NCBI GenBank assembly: GCA_025336685.1
Contig: GCA_025336685.1_4717.1
Origin: Escherichia coli
GTDB taxonomy: Bacteria > Pseudomonadota > Gammaproteobacteria > Enterobacterales > Enterobacteriaceae
Length of the DNA: 64,000 nucleotides
Strand: one strand, 5' to 3'
The translations under genes were made by a program, and so were the position numbers. Below, one piece after another: positions 4,781-13,614 of this stretch (position 1 is its first letter; each line of letters starts with the position of its first letter). The notes beneath the pieces were generated by a model. The model was not told the DNA's origin. It did no database searches and was given only the letters and a program-made list of their open reading frames with translations.

Positions 4781-5422
4781 TTAGATGTACTGCTTACCGC
4801 CCACGAAGGAAGTTAGCCAGTTCCCACTGACAAGCTGTGATACCCAGCCAGGCACTGCCCTGCCATTCTGGCTCATGACGTTACCACACCAGCCAGGGAA
4901 TCCGGGACGGATATAATAGAAAGTTAAATTGTAGAGATGGCAATTCCATACCGCAACGTTATGTTTACCAGAAACCGCTTTAAAGACAAACGCAACGGGT
5001 AAAGGCGACGATAACAATTCAGTCACAGGAACGGCTGACCAGTTTGCGTTCGCGTTCCATGGTTGCCAGGTATGGCTACGCGAGTCGCAAAATACGTTAC
5101 CGTTGTTACCGCGCCCACCAGCATGCCACCACAGCGACGGACTCATGTTCTTAAGTGAGGTAAATTGCTGTGGTGGAATATTAGGAATAATAACAGGGTT
5201 GGTACCTTGCCCATGTTTCTTTTCTTTTGCGTTTACATACCCACTTATCGATTCGAGGTATTTGACACCAGGATAATTGTTCTGGACTTGTGTCGCAATA
5301 TCACGGACATCAAACGTCCAGCAGATCATGGTGTTGTAGTAAGCATCGGTGTTGTCGTACCAAGCGTTACCATCTTGTAAACGTGCGCCACTATTCGGTG
5401 TTTTATCTGTGCTTATAGCCAT
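4781..5422 (-). CDS. hypothetical tail-module protein (213 aa) with conserved C-terminal module
   Basis: C-terminal ~45 aa (RPGFPGWxGNVMSQNGRAVPGWVSQLVSGNWLTSFVGGKQY) identical to the next gene; AGGA SD. Confidence 0.5.
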   Translation of the reverse strand: MAISTDKTPNSGARLQDGNAWYDNTDAYYNTMICWTFDVRDIATQVQNNYPGVKYLESISGYVNAKEKKHGQGTNPVIIPNIPPQQFTSLKNMSPSLWWHAGGRGNNGNVFCDSRSHTWQPWNANANWSAVPVTELLSSPLPVAFVFKAVSGKHNVAVWNCHLYNLTFYYIRPGFPGWCGNVMSQNGRAVPGWVSQLVSGNWLTSFVGGKQYI

Positions 5423-5528
5423 GTTATTGTCCTATACTACGATGATTGAGATATCGAATGTCGGACGCTTGGTGCCGTCTGGTAGTACATACAGAAACAC
5501 CCACAGATAAAACAATAACTCCCATCAA

Positions 5529-6194
5529 TTAAATTGATGTTAGATACTGCTTACCTCCGACAAACGATGTCAACCAGTTCCCACTGACGAGCTGTGATAC
5601 CCAGCCAGGCACTGCCCTACCGTTCTGGCTCATCACATTACCCGCCCATCCCGGAAAACCAGGTCGGAAAATATATACTTGAATATGTGTTAAAGCGTTA
5701 TCATTACCTCCACCAACAGCAACATTACGACGTCCGGATGATGGGAAATATTCTTTTAAGAACAGGGGATCGTTTGCCAATAAAGAAGCGGGCCAAGGAT
5801 TAGCGGATGCGTCAACATCGAATTCGGTCCATCGCCATTTGCGTCCGGTATCGAACCAGGTTGACGTACCACCGCCACGCACCGCAAGATTGCGTGCATC
5901 ACGGGCACTGTATATTGATTCGATGTTTCGCCACCCACCTTTTGCGGCGTTTGCCGCATAGCAAATCGCATTACCACCATTCTTCTTTTCGTAAACGGTT
6001 CGTTTGATATGAACACGGTCGATAAACGCTTCACCGTATTTGTTGACGAGTGTTTGCGCGATATCACGAAGATCGTGCATATGAAAGGCGATGTCTTCGT
6101 TGTGGAACCACGTTGTCGGGTTCCAAACGGTGCCGTTTGGTTCGGCACACATCGATCGGATATTGTTGCGTTGATTAATCGCGATAAAGCCCAT
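5529..6194 (-). CDS. hypothetical tail-module protein (about 221 aa), paralog of 4781..5422
   Basis: Same C-terminal module with different N-terminal region; start chosen at internal ATG 6192-6194 with GAGG SD (ORF track extends to 6257 through the terminator). Confidence 0.5.
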   Translation of the reverse strand: MGFIAINQRNNIRSMCAEPNGTVWNPTTWFHNEDIAFHMHDLRDIAQTLVNKYGEAFIDRVHIKRTVYEKKNGGNAICYAANAAKGGWRNIESIYSARDARNLAVRGGGTSTWFDTGRKWRWTEFDVDASANPWPASLLANDPLFLKEYFPSSGRRNVAVGGGNDNALTHIQVYIFRPGFPGWAGNVMSQNGRAVPGWVSQLVSGNWLTSFVGGKQYLTSI

Positions 6195-6246
6195 GGTCCA
6201 CCTCGTTCCTGTTCTCGAAGGAAATTTCATACGATGACGCCATAAC

Positions 6247-6303
6247 AGCTCCCCCATCCTCCCAACCCGTAAGGGAAGGGAGGATGTAAGGGAAGGAGGA
6301 GCT
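6247..6303 (-). terminator. nested GC-rich hairpin terminator
   Basis: Inner stem CATCCTCCC/GGGAGGATG (6255-6263/6278-6286) with loop AACCCGTAAGGGAA, enclosed by AGCTCC/GGAGCT; downstream of the lipoprotein gene. Confidence 0.5.
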
Positions 6304-6309
6304 ATTTAA

Positions 6310-6813
6310 TTACTGGCTGACAACCTCAACGGAACTGGGATCGGCGATCAGCGCACGGTCGGTAGAACAATTGAAGAAGACCATGCCAACACCATCACCG
6401 TTCGAGTTCAGGGTTGAACTTACGTAAGACAATGTTGGTTTATTCATACGGTAGAAGCGTTCGTTGGTGGTGGTATTGAACCCCAGATCAACGTAGTCTT
6501 TCACCGTGGTGTACAACTGTGTGGACTCGAAAACGGTTACCGGAGAGTCAACGGTAAACTGACTACCTTCGTCCACTACCAGAACTTTATCGTTCCAGAT
6601 TTCAGTGGTTGAGAACTTCGGTTTCCAGTGTTCGAATTCCTGGGTTGCTCCCCAGCAGGAATACACAGCGAGATCGCTGTTCTTCTCAACAGGTTTTAAC
6701 CCCACCAGTTGTGTCAGGCCTTTATCCAGATTCGGTAAGCCTTCCAGTGTAGCACACCCACCCAGAGAAAGTACCATCAACATACCGAGAATAATCGCGC
6801 AAAGTTTCTTCAT
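6310..6813 (-). CDS. putative lipoprotein (167 aa)
   Basis: N-terminal MKKLCAIILGMLMVLSLGGC: signal peptide with lipobox-like LGGC; AAGGA SD. Confidence 0.55.
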   Translation of the reverse strand: MKKLCAIILGMLMVLSLGGCATLEGLPNLDKGLTQLVGLKPVEKNSDLAVYSCWGATQEFEHWKPKFSTTEIWNDKVLVVDEGSQFTVDSPVTVFESTQLYTTVKDYVDLGFNTTTNERFYRMNKPTLSYVSSTLNSNGDGVGMVFFNCSTDRALIADPSSVEVVSQ

Positions 6814-6857
6814 CGTCGGATTTCCTTATGTGTTAACGGAAGTGATTTCCATAGTAA

Positions 6858-7273
6858 TTACACAGTTTTAGGAAATTCCGGCCAATCGATATTTGGCGCG
6901 GCGTCGGTATCGATAGCCGTCACCTCGTCAATGTAATCCAAAACAGCATTAAGTTGGGCTGTTTCTTCCGGAGTCAGTTTTCGCCCGGCCCGTAATTTTA
7001 ACTGAATAAGATCAATGGAAGCCAGCGCAGAGTCAATCAGAGATTTTTTCATCTGTTCTGCCTCGGCGACGAGATCTTCGTGTTGCCGCTCGGGTTCCGG
7101 AGGTGCGGTAAACTCACCATTTGAGTATAACCAACCTATTCCAGGCGACACAGCTCCCGTATCGCTAATGCTGACCAACTGTTGATTGTCAGATACATCG
7201 AGCTCTGCTTCGCCATCGTAAACAATCGTGTTTACTACCACCCCATTTTCAATAACAGCGTATGATGTACTCA
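6858..7273 (-). CDS. tail fibre assembly protein (chaperone)
   Basis: Lies immediately after the long fibre gene; start ATG overlaps the fibre stop (ATGTAATGAGT); C-terminal region resembles phage Tfa chaperones. Confidence 0.55.
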
Positions 7274-10200
7274 TTACATAAACTCCTCGATGATGCAAAT
7301 CCCGTCAGCGCCACGCCCGCCACGCATAACGGTTCCAGTGTAACCGTTATCGTAAGCGCCGCCGCCCGAACCTCGTGCGAGGCCGTTTGACCCACCGCCA
7401 ACAGCTGCGCGACCACCGCCACCCCAATATGACGCACCCCCACCACCACATACAGGAAATGCGCCAGCCTGACCGTCATCACCATCACCACCTGAAATGC
7501 GTATATCCCCGGTACTAGGTACACCACCACCCCCACCGCCAGTGTTTGTGACAGTTGTTTTTCCTGCGCCTTGCCCACCGGGAGCAGTCAGCAGGGATGC
7601 AAATTTACTATCCCCGCCCCTGTTTCCAACTGTTGCCCCGGAACCACCAGTGCCACCAGAACCAATTACAACAGAATAACTAGTAGCCGCTACCGTTATA
7701 ACCGAAATTACTGTTGCCCCGGCCCCACCGCCAGCACCAAAAAACGTTTCGCTGTTGGAAAAAGCCTGGCAACCACCACCGCCGCCTCCACCACCGGTTA
7801 ATATTACTCTAATCCGTTTTGTTCCTTGTGTTGGGGTGTACGTCCCTGACGATGTGAAAACACGCATGTTCAGTAAACGTCCGACATATCCACTAGAATC
7901 GGCTAAACCAAGATCTTTAGCTGCTAACGTGATATTAGCTGTGCCATCGAAAGGTTTACCGTTAATCGTGCGTGCCGTCTGCAGCTTCGTGGCCGTTGCT
8001 GCGTTTCCTGACGTATTCTGGTTTCCCGCGGCGTTAACACCTGGTAGATTGATGTTCGCACTACCGTCGAAAGACACCCCACCAATGGTGCGGGCTGTCT
8101 TCAGTTTTGTCGCCGTGGCGGCATTACCGGTCGTGTCTTGGTTACCGGTGGTGTTTACCCCAGGTAGGTTGATATTGGCTGTTCCGTTAAATGAAACACC
8201 ACCAATCGTCCTTGCTGTTTGCAACTTCGTTGCGGATGCCGCATTCCCCGTGGTGTTTTGGTTACCTGTTGCATTCACGCCTGGGATGCTATCCTTAGAT
8301 GTGTAGATCTGTGCCCATTCCGACCAGTTCGAATCGGCCGCATCACGACGTGAACGTAGGTAAGCTGGAGCGTGTGCGCCTGAGGTACCTGACCACCCAA
8401 TGAGGATTTCACCTTCACCGACCGATGAAGCCCCTTTAAGATGAATGATGTTACCATAAGCGGTGGGATATCCGTTATTGTACGCTTCATACATCTGGAT
8501 GCCCGCATTGCTGCCCTGAGCCGTGTTAGCTAAGGCCGTAACACGACCTTTGGAAGCGAGAGCGTTAATACTGAAGCTAATATCCTTAGTACCGTCAAAG
8601 GCGACCCCATTAATCTTCCGTGCTGTTTGGAGTTTCGTAGCAGTAGCCGCATTACCAGAGGTACTCTGATTACCTGCTTTGTTCACGCCCGGTAAATCAA
8701 TGTTGGCTGTTCCATCAAAGGACACACCCCCTATGGTTCTCGCTGTCTGGAGTTTTGTTGCTGAACCAGCGTTTCCAGAAGTGCTTTGATTACCTGCCGC
8801 GTTGACACCCGGTAGGTCAATGCTAGCAGAACCATCAAAAGAAACTCCACCGATCGTGATCGGTGTTTTCAATTTCGTGGCTGTCGCAGCATTACCCGTC
8901 GTATTCTGATTGCCAGCAGCATTAACACCAGGTAATGCGATATCGGTCGTACCATCGAACGCAACACCACCGACTTTACGGGCGGTCTGTAGCTTGGTCG
9001 CTGTAGCCGCGTTGCCGCTGGTATTTTGCGTGCCTGCTTTATTTACGCCAGGCAAATCAATGTTCGCAGTACCATCAAAAGAAACACCCCCGATGGTTCT
9101 CGCGGTCTCAAGTTTGGTTGCGCTTCCTGCGTTTCCGCTGGTGCTTTGATTTCCCGCTGCATCAACACCTGGTAGATTGATGCTGGCCGAACCATCGAAA
9201 CTCACACCACCGATAGTAACAGCGGTTTTCAACTTCGTCGCCGTTGCTGCGTTACCGGTTGTATTTTGATTGCCTGTCGCATTAACGCCCGGTAATGCAA
9301 TATCCGCTGTTCCGTCAAAGGCAACGCCACCGATTCTACGTGCAGTTTGTAGCTTGGTTGCACTAGCAGCGTTACCGCTGGTATTCTGGGTGCCAGCTTT
9401 GTTAACACCGGGGAGATCGATATTAGCAGAACCATCGAAGCTGACGCCACCTATCGTTCTTGCAGTATCGAGTTTAGCTGCTGTGGCTGCATTATTACCC
9501 ACTTTCAGCCAATCATCCCATGGACCATCCTGGCCGTTCCATGATGCCGTTAAACTACGTACGTAAATATTGCCGGTACGTACAGTGTAACGTTGCGTTC
9601 CACCGAATTGTCCGGCAGGGAGCACTTCAAGGTAACCTGCAGCATTTGCTTCAGGGAAATTGTGGGCGACGTCCGCGTTCGTTGATACTGGTTTAGACCA
9701 AATACCCACAGACACTTCAACCGGACCGTAAGTATTCAGATTTGCGTCGGTGGGGAGCTGTCCTCGAAAACGTTGGAATTGTGTCGCCGATAACCCCAAC
9801 GTTGTTTGCATGCTTTCAATGCTGGATTGCTGAAGTAACGTCCGTGCTGTCGATGTAATCACGGTAAGCGCAACTTTATTAACACCGGTGAAATACGGGA
9901 GTTTGTCTGCTGATGTCGCTAAACCTGAAAAGGCGGTCAGTAATGCGTTAAGGGGCTGCTTCCCAGCTAACGCATTTGTTACCGTCGTTGCGAAATTAGG
10001 ATCGCTTCCTATAGCTCGAGCCAGCTTATTAAGCGTATTTAGCGTCGCTGGTGACGAGTCGATCAGCGCCGTGATCGCACGCATCACAAATTCCGTGTTG
10101 GCTATCTGTCGACTGCTATTGTTAACTGCTGCGGTGGGCGCTGCTGGCGTACCAGTGAATACAGGGCTATTAAGATCCGCCTTGAGGGCGATGAGACGTT

Positions 10201-11149
10201 TAAGCGCTTCAACATCGACTTTCAGGTTTTCCCATCCGATGAGAGAACCACCACTGTTGGCATGGTAACGGTTGTACCAGAAGTCACCGTTAACGCCTAA
10301 AAAGAATATTCCCTTCTCTTCGTTTTGTGGGCCGGAACTATTTCGTGATGCGCTGATATATTTGATTTTAATAATACCGTTAAACACCACTCCTGGGATT
10401 ATTTCGCTGCTTCCAGCTAACTGTGATACTTGGTAAATCCCCGGGGTCGCAGCTTTAACCCATGTTAAGAATTCTGTTACTCCGGCGTTACCACTGAAAT
10501 TCTTAACGTCGGTAAGTATCGCACCATAACCGAACATACCGGGCAGAGCAACTCGTCCGTTGGTACGGTCACGAATATTTGATGCGATTACAGGTAGCTG
10601 TTTACGAACATTATTAACCGCCTTAGGTGTGGCCGATTTTGTCTCATCGTCGCTATCGATGGCGTTGCTCAGGATGGTCAGCCCTCGCTTAGCAGTAGTT
10701 GCATCAGGAAGAAATGCGTTATCCAACACCTTAAGCTGTATTGCACTCGTATTACTAACAACGACATGCATCTGACAGTTAAGAACGCTGGTTGCGCCTT
10801 CGGTAGGCATAGGCTTATATCTTTCTGGTGCACTGCAGACGGCAATCAGAACACCCTTGTCGTCGTACAGACCGATCTCACGTACCCAGAACCCACCTTG
10901 ACTGGCAGGAATAATACCCTCAACGACAATCCTGGTTGTACTATCGCCATCCGCATGGATATTAGAAACTTCCCCACGATAAACTTCGTGAACAAGCGCT
11001 GTTTGGCTGGCGGTCGGGGTTGGTGTCGAGCCGTTACCATCACCAACGGCAAAGTGTGTGATTTTTAGTTTCTCACCGTCGGGAAGTAACGCAGCGGTGA
11101 TACGTTCTGCTCCTTTATCGGTAACTACCGTTTTATATGCTGTACTCAT
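7274..11149 (-). CDS. long tail fibre protein (about 1291 aa from internal Met; ORF track 1318 aa)
   Basis: About 12 degenerate ~34-aa repeats (TARTIGGVSFDGTANIDLPGVNxAGNQNTSGNAATATKLQ) typical of phage fibres; Gly-rich C-terminal domain; likely start MSTAYKTVV at 11147-11149. Confidence 0.8.
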   Translation of the reverse strand: MSTAYKTVVTDKGAERITAALLPDGEKLKITHFAVGDGNGSTPTPTASQTALVHEVYRGEVSNIHADGDSTTRIVVEGIIPASQGGFWVREIGLYDDKGVLIAVCSAPERYKPMPTEGATSVLNCQMHVVVSNTSAIQLKVLDNAFLPDATTAKRGLTILSNAIDSDDETKSATPKAVNNVRKQLPVIASNIRDRTNGRVALPGMFGYGAILTDVKNFSGNAGVTEFLTWVKAATPGIYQVSQLAGSSEIIPGVVFNGIIKIKYISASRNSSGPQNEEKGIFFLGVNGDFWYNRYHANSGGSLIGWENLKVDVEALKRLIALKADLNSPVFTGTPAAPTAAVNNSSRQIANTEFVMRAITALIDSSPATLNTLNKLARAIGSDPNFATTVTNALAGKQPLNALLTAFSGLATSADKLPYFTGVNKVALTVITSTARTLLQQSSIESMQTTLGLSATQFQRFRGQLPTDANLNTYGPVEVSVGIWSKPVSTNADVAHNFPEANAAGYLEVLPAGQFGGTQRYTVRTGNIYVRSLTASWNGQDGPWDDWLKVGNNAATAAKLDTARTIGGVSFDGSANIDLPGVNKAGTQNTSGNAASATKLQTARRIGGVAFDGTADIALPGVNATGNQNTTGNAATATKLKTAVTIGGVSFDGSASINLPGVDAAGNQSTSGNAGSATKLETARTIGGVSFDGTANIDLPGVNKAGTQNTSGNAATATKLQTARKVGGVAFDGTTDIALPGVNAAGNQNTTGNAATATKLKTPITIGGVSFDGSASIDLPGVNAAGNQSTSGNAGSATKLQTARTIGGVSFDGTANIDLPGVNKAGNQSTSGNAATATKLQTARKINGVAFDGTKDISFSINALASKGRVTALANTAQGSNAGIQMYEAYNNGYPTAYGNIIHLKGASSVGEGEILIGWSGTSGAHAPAYLRSRRDAADSNWSEWAQIYTSKDSIPGVNATGNQNTTGNAASATKLQTARTIGGVSFNGTANINLPGVNTTGNQDTTGNAATATKLKTARTIGGVSFDGSANINLPGVNAAGNQNTSGNAATATKLQTARTINGKPFDGTANITLAAKDLGLADSSGYVGRLLNMRVFTSSGTYTPTQGTKRIRVILTGGGGGGGGCQAFSNSETFFGAGGGAGATVISVITVAATSYSVVIGSGGTGGSGATVGNRGGDSKFASLLTAPGGQGAGKTTVTNTGGGGGGVPSTGDIRISGGDGDDGQAGAFPVCGGGGASYWGGGGRAAVGGGSNGLARGSGGGAYDNGYTGTVMRGGRGADGICIIEEFM
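7905..8285 (-). repeat. coding tandem repeats, block B (about 3 units) inside the long fibre gene
   Basis: Same ~34-aa unit after a ~100-aa non-repeat spacer. Confidence 0.55.
8575..9485 (-). repeat. coding tandem repeats, block A (about 9 units of ~102 bp) inside the long fibre gene
   Basis: Repeated GGVSFDG...LPGVN...TGNAATATKL units read from the translation; DNA copies are diverged. Confidence 0.6.
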
Positions 11150-11156
11150 GGTGTTT

Positions 11157-11684
11157 TTATCCTGGATAAATAGTGATGATATCACCAATGACCGTTGTGG
11201 CACCGGCGTAAAGATGAGCCGGAGATACATCGTGTTGGTTTGTCACGGTAAGATCCAATCGACCACGCCAAACCATGGAGGTATTCGCGATGGGGATAGA
11301 AATCTTTTTGGATATATCGTCACGAAAATCAATAACAGTGGCAAGGGTAACTGTATCAAAGTCAACGTCGGGGTCAAAGACGAACCCGTATTGATCTGAA
11401 ATCGCCCGAATAATCGCGTGTATAGTTGTTGTCTTAACAGACTCTAAAACGATTTTTATTGGTATTCCTAGAAATGCCTTCGCAATATCGCGTCGAGCGT
11501 AAACGATAAAACTTTCACCGTTCCACCTTGTTCCTTCATTTGCTGTGACGATCACTTTTGCCCTGTTAGCACCAGAACTTCCATCCAAGACTAATGTAAG
11601 ATCGGAGCTGTTGAATACGCTACTGTTACGTCTGTTTATCAACGACGTCAGTTCGTCTTTCCATGGCGGGTAAAGTGAACACAT
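11157..11684 (-). CDS. free-standing anchor-domain protein (about 175 aa) upstream of the long fibre
   Basis: Paralog of the N-terminal domain of the 870/590/503-aa proteins (YARRDIAKAFLGIPIKI); start MCSLYPPWKDEL with GGAGGAGGG SD. Confidence 0.5.
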   Translation of the reverse strand: MCSLYPPWKDELTSLINRRNSSVFNSSDLTLVLDGSSGANRAKVIVTANEGTRWNGESFIVYARRDIAKAFLGIPIKIVLESVKTTTIHAIIRAISDQYGFVFDPDVDFDTVTLATVIDFRDDISKKISIPIANTSMVWRGRLDLTVTNQHDVSPAHLYAGATTVIGDIITIYPG

Positions 11685-11797
11685 ATGTGCACCCTCCTCC
11701 AACATAACCAGATTAAATATATATTTCTTAAACGTGGGACACGATTCGAGATAAACGTTAACGGTCTTAACGACCGCATAAAATTCCGCGCATATTA

Positions 11798-11841: not shown

Positions 11842-13596
11842 TTATGCTGCTACATATCCAGGCCAACGTTCTCTTGGCCAGTTTGTTGCGCCCTGTCCAA
11901 CGTTGTCCTTACCAGAAATTACGTTACTTACATCCCATCCACTCAGATCCTGATTGAACGCGGTGTTTTCGCGCATCATGAGATCGATCTTACGTAGTGA
12001 ACGGGTATTCCAGCCGGAAATGTCTTGGTTGAATGCTGTATTGTAGGCAAACATGTTAGACACGCTTTGTAACTTCGATGTGTTCCAACCACTGATGTCG
12101 CTATTGAACGACATGCTCGAGAACATGCTGCTCGCATCAACAAGGCTGTCGGTTTTCCAATTAACCAGTTTATCACCATCAAGCGCAGCGCTGCTGCTGA
12201 ACATAAAACTCATGTCGTTAACTTTGGACACATCCCATTTATCCAACCCGTTACCCACGAACGCGGGACAGGACGAGAACATATAACTCATATTAGTAAC
12301 CCGACTCACATTCCATTTACTGAAGTCGAGGTTAAGTTTCTGACACCCTAAGAAGGTTTTAGACATGTTGGTGATACGACTAACATCCCACTCTTGGATG
12401 TTGGGGTCGTTAAGTGTCGTTAAATAGTTGAACAATGTCGCTAACGACGTCCATTTCTGTGGAATCTGGTTTGGTACCGTACGAAGCGATGCGAGGTTGT
12501 TGGTTGACGGAGAGCAGAACATGCCGTTATCCCAATTTACGATCTCCGTAATTTTGGACCCTTTGATCGTCTGAGTGACGTTACCATCTTTCACCATACC
12601 TGTAGCGACGATGGTATATTCACCGGTGTCCGCATAATCGTGGGAGTAGGAGTTGTTGCTTGAGGTCTCCGTTACTTTATTCCCATCACCCCAATCGATA
12701 TTGACCTTATCCCATCCACCTAGATAGAACTGTACTTTGCCTCCGGTGGCTTTTAGGATGTATTTACCCCCATTGTCTGTATAATAACAGACGACCATCG
12801 AACCGTACAGATTACCTATCTGCCAATCATCCTTTTGCGTTATTGCGATTTGCGCCGCACCACGCTGTACGAAGAGTACCGTACGATTCTCGGCAGTCTG
12901 TAATGTGGTTATTGCCTGAGCCTTATCGTCCTCGCTAATTTCGCCAGACGCCACCAAAGCGCTTAACATCCTTTCGAAGTATTCGATCGGTAACTCGGTT
13001 CCAACAGACTTATCAACAGACGATACGGCAAGATCACCCAATGCTGCGGTGGTAGCCAACGCCAATGAACCCTTGGTCATATCTGTTTCTTGGATGTAAT
13101 GCAGTCCTGTAAGCTGGTACGCTTGAATAATAGTAATCAGGTTCAGCGTATCGTTAACGACCTGTACCTGTAAATTCCCGGACCATACATAACTGCTTTC
13201 AGCAATCGGTAGTTCGACCGACTGAATACCCGATGTTTCAAAGGTGATCTTCTTATTAAGATCGGTTTCCAGGAAATCAACCGCGAGGTCGAAATTCATG
13301 CCGTACTTTTCAGCGATGGAATCTACGATATTCTTGAAAGCAACATCGGTGCTTACGATAAAACGTAACGGAATTCCTGTAAACGCTTTAGCGATATCTC
13401 GACGAACATACGTAAGCGATTGTTCGAAGAAATAGGGACTGTTATCTCCAGGCTTGATGGTTACCTGACACGCTTCAGGATATTCAGCTGGGATGAACGA
13501 TTCGAATTTAACATCGGATTCCTTCAACGAAAGCTTGTTATTTCGGTTCACTAACGCCAGAAGATCGGCTTTCCATCCGGGGTAAACTGTAGACAT
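11842..13596 (-). CDS. receptor-binding protein: anchor domain fused to DUF285/BspA-like repeat domain
   Basis: N-terminal anchor paralog; C-terminal repeats WNVSRVTNMSYMFSSC / WDVSKVNDMSFMFSS / WNTSKLQSVSNMF match the DUF285 repeat signature; start MSTVYPGW with GGAG SD. Confidence 0.6.
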   Translation of the reverse strand: MSTVYPGWKADLLALVNRNNKLSLKESDVKFESFIPAEYPEACQVTIKPGDNSPYFFEQSLTYVRRDIAKAFTGIPLRFIVSTDVAFKNIVDSIAEKYGMNFDLAVDFLETDLNKKITFETSGIQSVELPIAESSYVWSGNLQVQVVNDTLNLITIIQAYQLTGLHYIQETDMTKGSLALATTAALGDLAVSSVDKSVGTELPIEYFERMLSALVASGEISEDDKAQAITTLQTAENRTVLFVQRGAAQIAITQKDDWQIGNLYGSMVVCYYTDNGGKYILKATGGKVQFYLGGWDKVNIDWGDGNKVTETSSNNSYSHDYADTGEYTIVATGMVKDGNVTQTIKGSKITEIVNWDNGMFCSPSTNNLASLRTVPNQIPQKWTSLATLFNYLTTLNDPNIQEWDVSRITNMSKTFLGCQKLNLDFSKWNVSRVTNMSYMFSSCPAFVGNGLDKWDVSKVNDMSFMFSSSAALDGDKLVNWKTDSLVDASSMFSSMSFNSDISGWNTSKLQSVSNMFAYNTAFNQDISGWNTRSLRKIDLMMRENTAFNQDLSGWDVSNVISGKDNVGQGATNWPRERWPGYVAA

Positions 13597-13614
13597 AAGC
13601 ACTCCAAAGTTCAT

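What the first reader, a model, noticed from the sequence alone, without database searches (positions are those of the whole stretch)
7274..9485. Long fibre combines two blocks of ~34-aa repeats with a Gly-rich C-terminal domain
Block A (about 9 units) and block B (about 3 units) of GGVSFDGxANIxLPGVNxxGNQxTxGNAAxATKL repeats are separated by about 100 non-repeat residues. The last ~190 aa are Gly-rich (GGGGGGGGC, GAGGGAG, GGDGDDGQAG). Repeat number is a likely length-variation hotspot, and the Gly-rich tip is a candidate receptor-contact or auto-chaperone module.
Basis: seen in the sequence. Interest (0 to 1): 0.4.

Follow-up and report, generated by a model that had tools for sequence, protein, structure and literature searches.

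The report
Jumbo-phage tail fibre with glycine-rich tip
This is the outer two-thirds of the long tail fibre gene of an E. coli jumbo phage related to Goslar: a shaft of 40-residue repeats whose number differs between relatives, ending in a known glycine-rich receptor-binding tip that comes with its own helper gene, which makes it an ordinary though well-documented example of modular phage fibre evolution.

Summary
The feature lies on the minus strand and is the C-terminal 737 aa of a 1291-aa tail fibre gene (7274..11149) in a Goslar-like chimallivirus.

- **Repeats:** the period is 40 aa (120 nt), not about 34. Block A has 7 full and 2 half units, block B has 2 full and 2 half, and a 96-aa non-repeat domain separates them.
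- **Copy number:** it varies among seven Goslar-like fibres, 3 to 7 full units in block A and 2 to 3 in block B. Units share at most 14 identical bases in register, so this is slow evolutionary change, not rapid slippage.
- **Cassette:** the tip travels with a downstream Caudo_TAP assembly chaperone. Sister phages carry a Peptidase_S74 self-chaperoning tip instead and have no chaperone gene.
- **Virions:** published mass spectrometry of Goslar virions detects peptides from the Gly-rich domain, so it is not removed.

The receptor-contact reading is supported and the auto-chaperone reading is not. This is a new member of a known kind, of low to moderate interest.

The parts
7274..11149 (-). Complete tail fibre gene, 1291 aa plus stop. 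It is the orthologue of Goslar gp090.
   Evidence: ORF. 79% aa identity to Goslar gp090 over the full length. Start codon context.
10727..11149 (-). N-terminal tail-collar fibre domain (aa 1-141), the presumed baseplate attachment end.
   Evidence: Pfam PF12571, E 9e-43.
10607..10699 (-). One Phage_fiber_2 repeat (aa 151-181).
   Evidence: Pfam PF03406, E 2.7e-08.
9494..10606 (-). Proximal shaft and globular insertions (aa 182-552). No family could be assigned to the last ~100 aa ('knob 1').
   Evidence: aa 357-416 match the Bxb1 gp4 tail collar fibre, E 2.6e-08. No Pfam hit for aa 440-560.
8576..9493 (-). Repeat block A (aa 553-858): half unit, 7 full 40-aa units in the order a b c a b c a, then a half unit.
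   Evidence: TRF periods of 120 and 360 nt. Unit listing and HMM domains.
8288..8575 (-). Non-repeat 96-aa domain between the blocks (aa 859-954, 'knob 2'). It is conserved in all Goslar-like relatives.
   Evidence: Seen in the sequence. No Pfam or PDB sequence match. Present in the relatives.
7925..8287 (-). Repeat block B (aa 955-1075): half unit, 2 full units, half unit.
   Evidence: Unit W982 looks like a fusion of Goslar units G974 and G1014.
7277..7924 (-). C-terminal TNF-like plus glycine-rich tip (aa 1076-1291; Pfam Gly_rich_2 covers aa 1100-1288).
6858..7274 (-). Tail fibre assembly chaperone (Tfa, 138 aa). Its ATG shares one base with the fibre's TAA stop. The GAGGAG that encodes the fibre's terminal Glu-Glu lies 8 nt upstream, where a ribosome-binding site would sit.
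   Evidence: Caudo_TAP PF02413, E 9e-21. Sequence. 65% identical to the Tfa that follows a Gly_rich_2 tip in a Mu-like prophage.
6854..7970 (-). Exchangeable tip-plus-chaperone cassette. DNA homology to four Goslar-like relatives stops at about 6853 and resumes at about 7920-7971.
   Evidence: blastn breakpoints. Alternative tips in the relatives.

Best explanation
The region encodes the distal two-thirds of the long tail fibre of a Goslar-like nucleus-forming jumbo phage of E. coli.

- **Attachment (inferred):** the N-terminal collar domain fixes a presumably trimeric fibre to the peripheral baseplate.
- **Shaft (inferred):** two arrays of a 40-aa repeat, interrupted by a small globular domain, form a rigid shaft. 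Each unit adds a fixed length. In-register loss or gain of whole units, or of the 3-unit a-b-c super-unit, changes fibre length over evolutionary time. The copy-number differences are shown; the structural role is inferred.
- **Tip (fold shown by prediction, binding inferred):** the last ~215 aa fold into a TNF-like beta-sandwich whose strands extend into a lattice of about 12 conserved glycine-rich segments. The variable loops between those segments are expected to contact the receptor.
- **Chaperone (inferred by analogy):** the tip is folded and trimerised with the help of the translationally coupled Caudo_TAP chaperone encoded just downstream.
- **Cassette (shown):** tip and chaperone move together as one exchangeable host-range cassette.
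- **Receptor (inferred):** because Goslar infection depends on the LPS core, and a Pam3-like Klebsiella phage fibre was reported to recognise LPS, the likeliest receptor is LPS outer core. This step has no direct support.
For: **Identity of the gene**
- The window is 91% identical in DNA to Goslar, and the protein is 79% identical to Goslar gp090.
- Pfam finds Phage_tail_fib, Phage_fiber_2 and Gly_rich_2. PHROG matches are tail fibre families.

**Tip fold**
- With a diverse 88-sequence alignment the model reaches pLDDT 94.3 and pTM 0.89.
- There are 274 viral structural matches and 5964 sequence clusters in the family.
- Conserved Gly motifs alternate with variable segments. The 31 substitutions relative to Goslar fall at family-variable positions (mean column entropy 2.9 against 2.1 overall).
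- The Pam3 paper describes the same TNF-like plus glycine-rich tip, with 12 glycine-rich motifs and a Tfa-like chaperone (PMC9608196).

**Cassette**
- The three fibres with a Gly_rich_2 tip (window, L083, Goslar) have a Caudo_TAP gene overlapping the stop codon. Three with a Peptidase_S74 tip, and one with a third kind of tip, have none.
- The same tip-plus-Tfa pair sits in the fibre position of a Mu-like E. coli prophage.

**Presence in virions**
- Goslar gp090 is detected with 35 peptides, including DLGLADSSGYVGR and AGVGTAHNGLAPGSGGGGAYDNSYSGTAKPGGR from the Gly-rich domain (bioRxiv 10.64898/2026.04.21.720040 supplement).

**Receptor lead**
- Goslar screens hit galU, hldE and waaF, and its receptor is listed as LPS GluII with the binding protein unknown (bioRxiv 10.64898/2026.04.02.716166 supplement).
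- A Pam3-like Klebsiella phage fibre was reported to recognise LPS, and host-adaptation mutations map to its glycine-rich domain (PMC12671077).
Against: - No direct binding, structural or genetic data exist for this protein.
- The Goslar cryoEM study could not resolve the tail fibres.
- Goslar-like phages carry several other candidate host-recognition proteins (DUF7941 fibres, gp25, gp29), so LPS dependence may belong to another protein.
- The model is of a monomer. The oligomeric state and the structure of the 40-aa repeat were not tested.
- The virion preparation used for mass spectrometry also contained non-virion assemblies. The stored peptide list is cut off, so the very last peptide was not checked.
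Confidence: 0.82

Rival explanations
1. The Gly-rich C-terminus is an intramolecular (auto-)chaperone that helps trimerisation and is then cleaved off, as in endosialidase-type tips.
For: It lies at the extreme C-terminus. That position is occupied by a Peptidase_S74 self-chaperoning module in sister phages L081, L082 and L084.
Against: - No Peptidase_S74 match, even at E up to 10.
- A dedicated Caudo_TAP chaperone follows this tip and is absent where S74 is present.
- The fold matches a mature virion fibre tip, Pam3 7yfw/7ypx.
- Peptides from residues ~1280-1312 of Goslar gp090 are detected in virions.
Confidence: 0.04
2. The repeat arrays form a fast-switching contingency locus, in which slippage or recombination changes fibre length within populations.
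For: Whole-unit differences exist between closely related phages. One unit looks like an unequal-crossover fusion.
Against: - Units are 62-75% identical in DNA, and the longest in-register exact match is 14 nt.
- Paralogous units (about 75%) are more diverged than orthologous units between phages (85-96%). The duplications therefore predate the split of these phages.
- The closest relative, L083 (92% DNA identity), has the same counts.
Confidence: 0.08
3. The Gly-rich domain is an enzyme, following the 'carbohydrate kinase' label that many E. coli homologues carry.
For: Source names on dozens of 308-aa homologues.
Against: - No kinase family matches in Pfam or NCBIfam.
- Structural neighbours are fibre tips and ALK/LTK ligand-binding domains, not kinases.
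- The 308-aa homologue sits in the tail fibre slot of a Mu-like prophage.
- The label is most simply a mis-annotation triggered by the Gly-rich motifs.
Confidence: 0.02
4. The fibre is a structural or secondary adhesin, and primary host recognition belongs to other proteins such as the DUF7941 fibres. In that case the tip binds something other than the LPS core.
For: - The Goslar preprint proposes several host-recognition elements and could not place gp90.
- The receptor-binding protein for Goslar is listed as unknown.
Against: - The tip is swapped between otherwise near-identical phages, which is the usual mark of a host-range determinant.
- Its closest sequence relatives (63-73% identical) are tips of E. 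coli prophage fibres.
Confidence: 0.2

Closest known systems
Escherichia phage Goslar gp090 (tail fibre) and gp089 (Tfa)
   Same: Orthologues: same domain order, same tip and same overlapping chaperone gene. 79% aa identity overall and 86% in the tip.
   Different: Block A has one more unit here (7 against 6) and block B one fewer (2 against 3). Goslar has a 32-aa insertion near aa 449. There are 31 substitutions in the tip.
Cyanophage Pam3 fibre gp24 with chaperone gp25 (PDB 7YPX, 7YFW)
   Different: Pam3 gp24 is a minimal fibre: a helical stalk plus the tip, with no repeat shaft. No match was found between the tip and any solved structure by sequence search. The chaperone here is a Caudo_TAP protein, whereas only the N-terminal domain of gp25 resembles Mu Tfa.
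Mycobacteriophage Bxb1 gp33 'tail wing brush' and gp29 tail spike (PDB 9D93)
   Different: Siphovirus tail-tip proteins with a different host and a different N-terminal context.
ALK/LTK receptor TNF-like plus glycine-rich ligand-binding domain
   Different: Animal receptor kinases that bind protein cytokines. The similarity is remote (11-23% identity) and TM-scores are low.
T-even gp38 adhesins (Salmonella phage S16 gp38, PDB 6F45)
   Same: Conserved glycine-rich motifs alternate with hypervariable loops that set receptor specificity (described in PMC9608196).
   Different: gp38 is a separate monomeric protein attached to the tip of gp37, with 10 motifs. It did not appear among the structural matches here.
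Mu S/U and P1 S/U fibre-tip plus Tfa cassettes
   Same: A fibre tip followed by an overlapping Caudo_TAP gene, exchanged as a unit. The 40-aa repeat occurs in P1 and P7 gpS. A Gly_rich_2 tip plus Tfa sits in a Mu-like prophage next to an inverted alternative tip.
   Different: There is no inverted alternative tip and no recombinase gene next to the fibre in this window. Here the variation is between genomes rather than by switching within one genome.

Membership tests
Pfam Gly_rich_2 (PF21722) | Match to the family profile above the curated cut-off | tested here: met
   51.2 bits against a cut-off of 24.3, covering profile positions 2-224 of 226.
TNF-like plus glycine-rich fibre tip (Pam3 gp24 type) | Beta-sandwich whose strands extend into a stacked lattice of glycine-rich segments | tested here: met
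TNF-like plus glycine-rich fibre tip (Pam3 gp24 type) | About 12 conserved glycine-rich motifs separated by variable loops | tested here: met
   About 12 Gly motifs counted by eye in the conservation and Gly-fraction profile of 88 homologues.
TNF-like plus glycine-rich fibre tip (Pam3 gp24 type) | Separate chaperone encoded next to the fibre | tested here: met
   Caudo_TAP gene overlaps the stop codon. It co-occurs with this tip in relatives and in a prophage.
TNF-like plus glycine-rich fibre tip (Pam3 gp24 type) | Homotrimer whose distal loops bind the host receptor | not testable with these tools
   Only monomer prediction was available, and there are no binding data.
Tail-collar type phage tail fibre (PF12571 N-terminus) | N-terminal Phage_tail_fib domain | tested here: met
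   E 9e-43.
Tail-collar type phage tail fibre (PF12571 N-terminus) | Presence in the virion | tested here: met
   Shown for the Goslar orthologue only: 35 peptides, 38% coverage.
Peptidase_S74 intramolecular chaperone tips | C-terminal S74 domain with a self-cleavage site | tested here: not met
   No match at E up to 10. The domain is detected in relatives L081, L082 and L084 instead.
Caudo_TAP tail fibre assembly proteins (downstream gene) | Match to PF02413 and a position immediately after the fibre gene | tested here: met
   E 9e-21. One-base overlap, TAATG.
Catalogued fibre repeat families (Pfam Phage_fiber_2, Phage_fiber_rpt; NCBIfam) | The 40-aa unit matches a curated repeat model | tested here: not met
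   No Pfam or NCBIfam model covers aa 553-1075. The only PDB hint is a non-significant match to the C-terminus of phage L Dec (E 1.2).

The most novel reading that the evidence does not exclude
The 40-aa unit could be a widespread but uncatalogued trimeric shaft repeat, with no Pfam, NCBIfam or solved-structure match. Its a-b-c super-period of three units would then be a structural building block, and the total unit number would be under length selection. This phage and Goslar differ in both blocks yet keep the same total (7+2 against 6+3). The Tfa chaperone may also stay on the virion at roughly one copy per fibre chain, as part of the receptor-binding tip.
Probability: 0.15. Interest if true: 0.4.

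Novelty: new member of a known kind. Interest (0 to 1): 0.27.

Why it matters
- The receptor-binding protein of Goslar is listed as unknown, and its fibres were not resolved by cryoEM.
- This analysis names a concrete candidate: the tip at residues 1076-1291 together with its chaperone. It also gives the cassette boundaries (about 6854-7970) for tip-swap experiments.
- Seven related phages provide a natural experiment. Three kinds of tip sit on the same shaft, and a chaperone gene is present only with the glycine-rich kind.
- Beyond that, the case illustrates well-known principles of modular fibre evolution rather than changing them.

Tried and rejected
- **First structure prediction.** A shallow alignment of 27 homologues at about 65% identity failed (pLDDT 40). 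A diverse alignment was needed.
- **Tip against solved structures by sequence.** Both single-sequence and profile searches found nothing meaningful.
- **The two non-repeat 'knob' regions.** They gave no Pfam or PDB matches and are not detectably similar to each other. Their fold is unassigned.
- **The 40-aa unit.** Its profile gave only a non-significant PDB hint, phage L Dec. There was no NCBIfam family and no literature hit for the motif strings or for PF21722.
- **E. coli complete genomes.** No near-identical DNA was found.
- **'Carbohydrate kinase' label on homologues.** Rejected as a mis-annotation.
- **Collagen-like or disordered linker.** Rejected for the Gly-rich region because the model is compact and confident.

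Full report
**What is there.** The true start is the ATG at 11149 (MSTAYK). It is preceded by AGGA, matches the start of the Goslar orthologue, and avoids overlap with the upstream gene. The product has 1291 aa. The window is 91% identical in DNA to Escherichia phage Goslar, a 237-kb nucleus-forming jumbo phage. The protein is 79% identical to Goslar gp090, which is annotated as a tail fibre. Pfam finds an N-terminal tail-collar fibre domain, one Phage_fiber_2 repeat and a C-terminal Gly_rich_2 domain. All strong PHROG matches are tail fibre families or families of unknown function.

**The repeats.** Tandem Repeats Finder reports periods of 120 and 360 nt.
- At protein level the unit is 40 aa, with consensus IGGVSFDGTANIxLPGVNAAGNQxTSGNAATATKLQTART. 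21 of the 40 positions are invariant across the 11 units aligned, 9 from this gene and 2 from Goslar.
- Block A (aa 553-858) has 7 full units in the order a b c a b c a, flanked by two half units.
- Block B (aa 955-1075) has 2 full units and two halves.
- The two blocks are separated by a 96-aa non-repeat domain.
- No Pfam, NCBIfam or solved-structure family covers the unit. It is nevertheless common in fibres of P1, P7, 9g, SSU5, Acinetobacter, Shewanella, Aeromonas and cyanophages.

**Does the copy number vary?** Yes.
- A metagenome scan with the Goslar-specific N-terminal half returned five more full-length Goslar-like fibre genes and one N-terminal fragment.
- Full units in block A / block B are: window 7/2, L083 7/2, Goslar 6/3, L081 4/2, L084 4/2, L085 4/2 and L082 3/2.
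- The 4-to-7 difference is one a-b-c super-unit of 360 nt.
- The Goslar and L082 differences are single-unit changes. Window unit W982 reads as the first half of Goslar G974 joined to the second half of G1014, which is the signature of unequal crossing-over.
- In 79 other viral loci the unit occurs 1 to 17 times.
- This is slow variation. Units in this gene are only 62-75% identical in DNA. 67% of shared residues use different codons, and the longest in-register exact match is 14 nt.
- Paralogous units (about 75%) are more diverged than orthologous units between phages (85-96%), so the duplications are older than the split of these phages.
- The closest relative, L083 (92% DNA identity), has identical counts.

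**The Gly-rich end.** The module starts at a sharply conserved junction, LGLxDxSGYVGR.
- Upstream of that junction, homologues have unrelated sequences.
- Hundreds of E. coli prophage proteins share the module at 63-73% identity. Family-wide there are 5964 clusters at 50% identity with E up to 0.001, nearly always at the extreme C-terminus.
- A first AlphaFold run with a shallow alignment failed. With 88 diverse homologues the model reached pLDDT 94.3 and pTM 0.89.
- Foldseek agrees, and 274 predicted viral structures match.
- The Pam3 paper describes this architecture as a TNF-like sandwich extending into a four-layer lattice of 12 glycine-rich motifs. It has a conserved stem, a variable distal tip proposed to bind the receptor, and a Tfa-like chaperone that embraces it (PMC9608196).
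- Here about 12 conserved Gly motifs alternate with variable segments. The 31 substitutions relative to Goslar fall preferentially at family-variable positions.

**Chaperone and cassette.**
- A 138-aa Caudo_TAP protein (E 9e-21) starts at 7274 and shares one base with the fibre's TAA stop.
- The GAGGAG that encodes the fibre's terminal Glu-Glu sits where this gene's ribosome-binding site should be. That suggests translational coupling, which is an inference.
- DNA homology to L081, L082, L084 and L085 stops at about 6853 and resumes at about 7920-7971.
- In L081, L082 and L084 the interval is replaced by a tip that ends in a Peptidase_S74 intramolecular chaperone, with no Tfa gene. L085 has a third kind of tip, also without Tfa.
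- The glycine-rich tip therefore travels with a trans-acting chaperone, while the self-chaperoning tips do not.
- The same pair fills the fibre slot of a Mu-like E. coli prophage (tip P0014 66% identical to the window's tip; Tfa 65%). There it lies next to an inverted second Tfa, an alternative tip fragment and, in one of the four loci shown, a resolvase fragment.

**Is the domain kept in virions?** A 2026 preprint on the Goslar virion could not resolve the tail fibres, but it detected gp90 by mass spectrometry.
- Its supplement lists gp090 with 35 peptides, 38% coverage and an estimated 29-68 copies.
- The peptide table includes DLGLADSSGYVGR, at the junction into the tip. It also includes AGVGTAHNGLAPGSGGGGAYDNSYSGTAKPGGR, which ends 12 residues from the C-terminus.
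- The Tfa gp089 is detected too, with 2 peptides and an estimated 35-82 copies. That is consistent with it staying bound, though weak as evidence.
- Two caveats apply: the preparation contained some non-virion assemblies, and the stored table is truncated.

**Receptor.** Genome-wide screens list Goslar's receptor as LPS (GluII), with hits in galU, hldE and waaF, and list the binding protein as unknown. A Pam3-like fibre of a Klebsiella phage was reported to recognise LPS, and host-adaptation mutations map to its glycine-rich domain. Assigning LPS-core binding to this tip is an inference.

**Verdict.** The length-variation idea holds on an evolutionary time scale. The receptor-contact idea is supported by structural homology and by cassette behaviour. 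The auto-chaperone idea is not supported. The feature is a new member of known families. Its value is practical: a defined candidate receptor-binding cassette for a jumbo phage whose receptor-binding protein is still unassigned.

Noticed in passing
window 11842..13614 (-), with 11157..11705 (-): A 590-aa protein with an N-terminal DUF7941 domain, a weak PKD-like match and DUF285 repeats lies upstream of the fibre gene, just beyond the small DUF7941 gene at 11157..11705. DNA at 11854-13600 has no counterpart in Goslar but is present in L082, L083 and L084. DUF7941 proteins are the proposed 'fibre cloud' of Goslar, so this is an extra candidate host-recognition protein.
   Followed up: partly
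window 5529..6257 (-) and 4781..5422 (-): Two paralogous ORFs (242 and 213 aa) share a near-identical ~40-aa C-terminus (RPGFPGW.GNVMSQNGRAVPGWVSQLVSGNWLTSFVGGKQY) and have no Pfam match. The 242-aa copy is absent from Goslar (no match for 5436-6295) but present in L082 and L085.
   Followed up: partly
window 6310..6813 (-): A 167-aa protein with a lipoprotein-type signal (MKKLCAIILGMLMVLSLGGC) lies just downstream of the Tfa gene. Its Goslar orthologue gp088 is one of the more abundant proteins in virion mass spectrometry, with about 490-1160 copies estimated. That is unexpected for a lipobox protein.
   Followed up: no
window 7283..7288 (-): The GAGGAG that encodes the conserved terminal Glu-Glu of the tip (IIEEF) lies 8 nt upstream of the overlapping Tfa start codon. 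It may double as that gene's ribosome-binding site, which would tie the conserved protein end to translational coupling.
   Followed up: no
window 7925..9493 (-) compared with L001 (Goslar): This phage and Goslar differ by one unit in each block in opposite directions (7+2 against 6+3), so the total number of full units is the same. This could be coincidence or selection on fibre length.
   Followed up: partly
L087 4001..6292 (Mu-like E. coli prophage): A 308-aa Gly_rich_2 tip and its Tfa are followed by an inverted second Tfa, a Gp53-like_C tip fragment and a resolvase fragment. This looks like an invertible host-range segment in which the glycine-rich tip is one of two alternatives.
   Followed up: no
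P0005, P0008, P0011, P0014 and many others: Dozens of E. coli 308-aa Gly_rich_2 fibre-tip proteins are named 'carbohydrate kinase' in public records. This is probably a propagated mis-annotation.
   Followed up: partly
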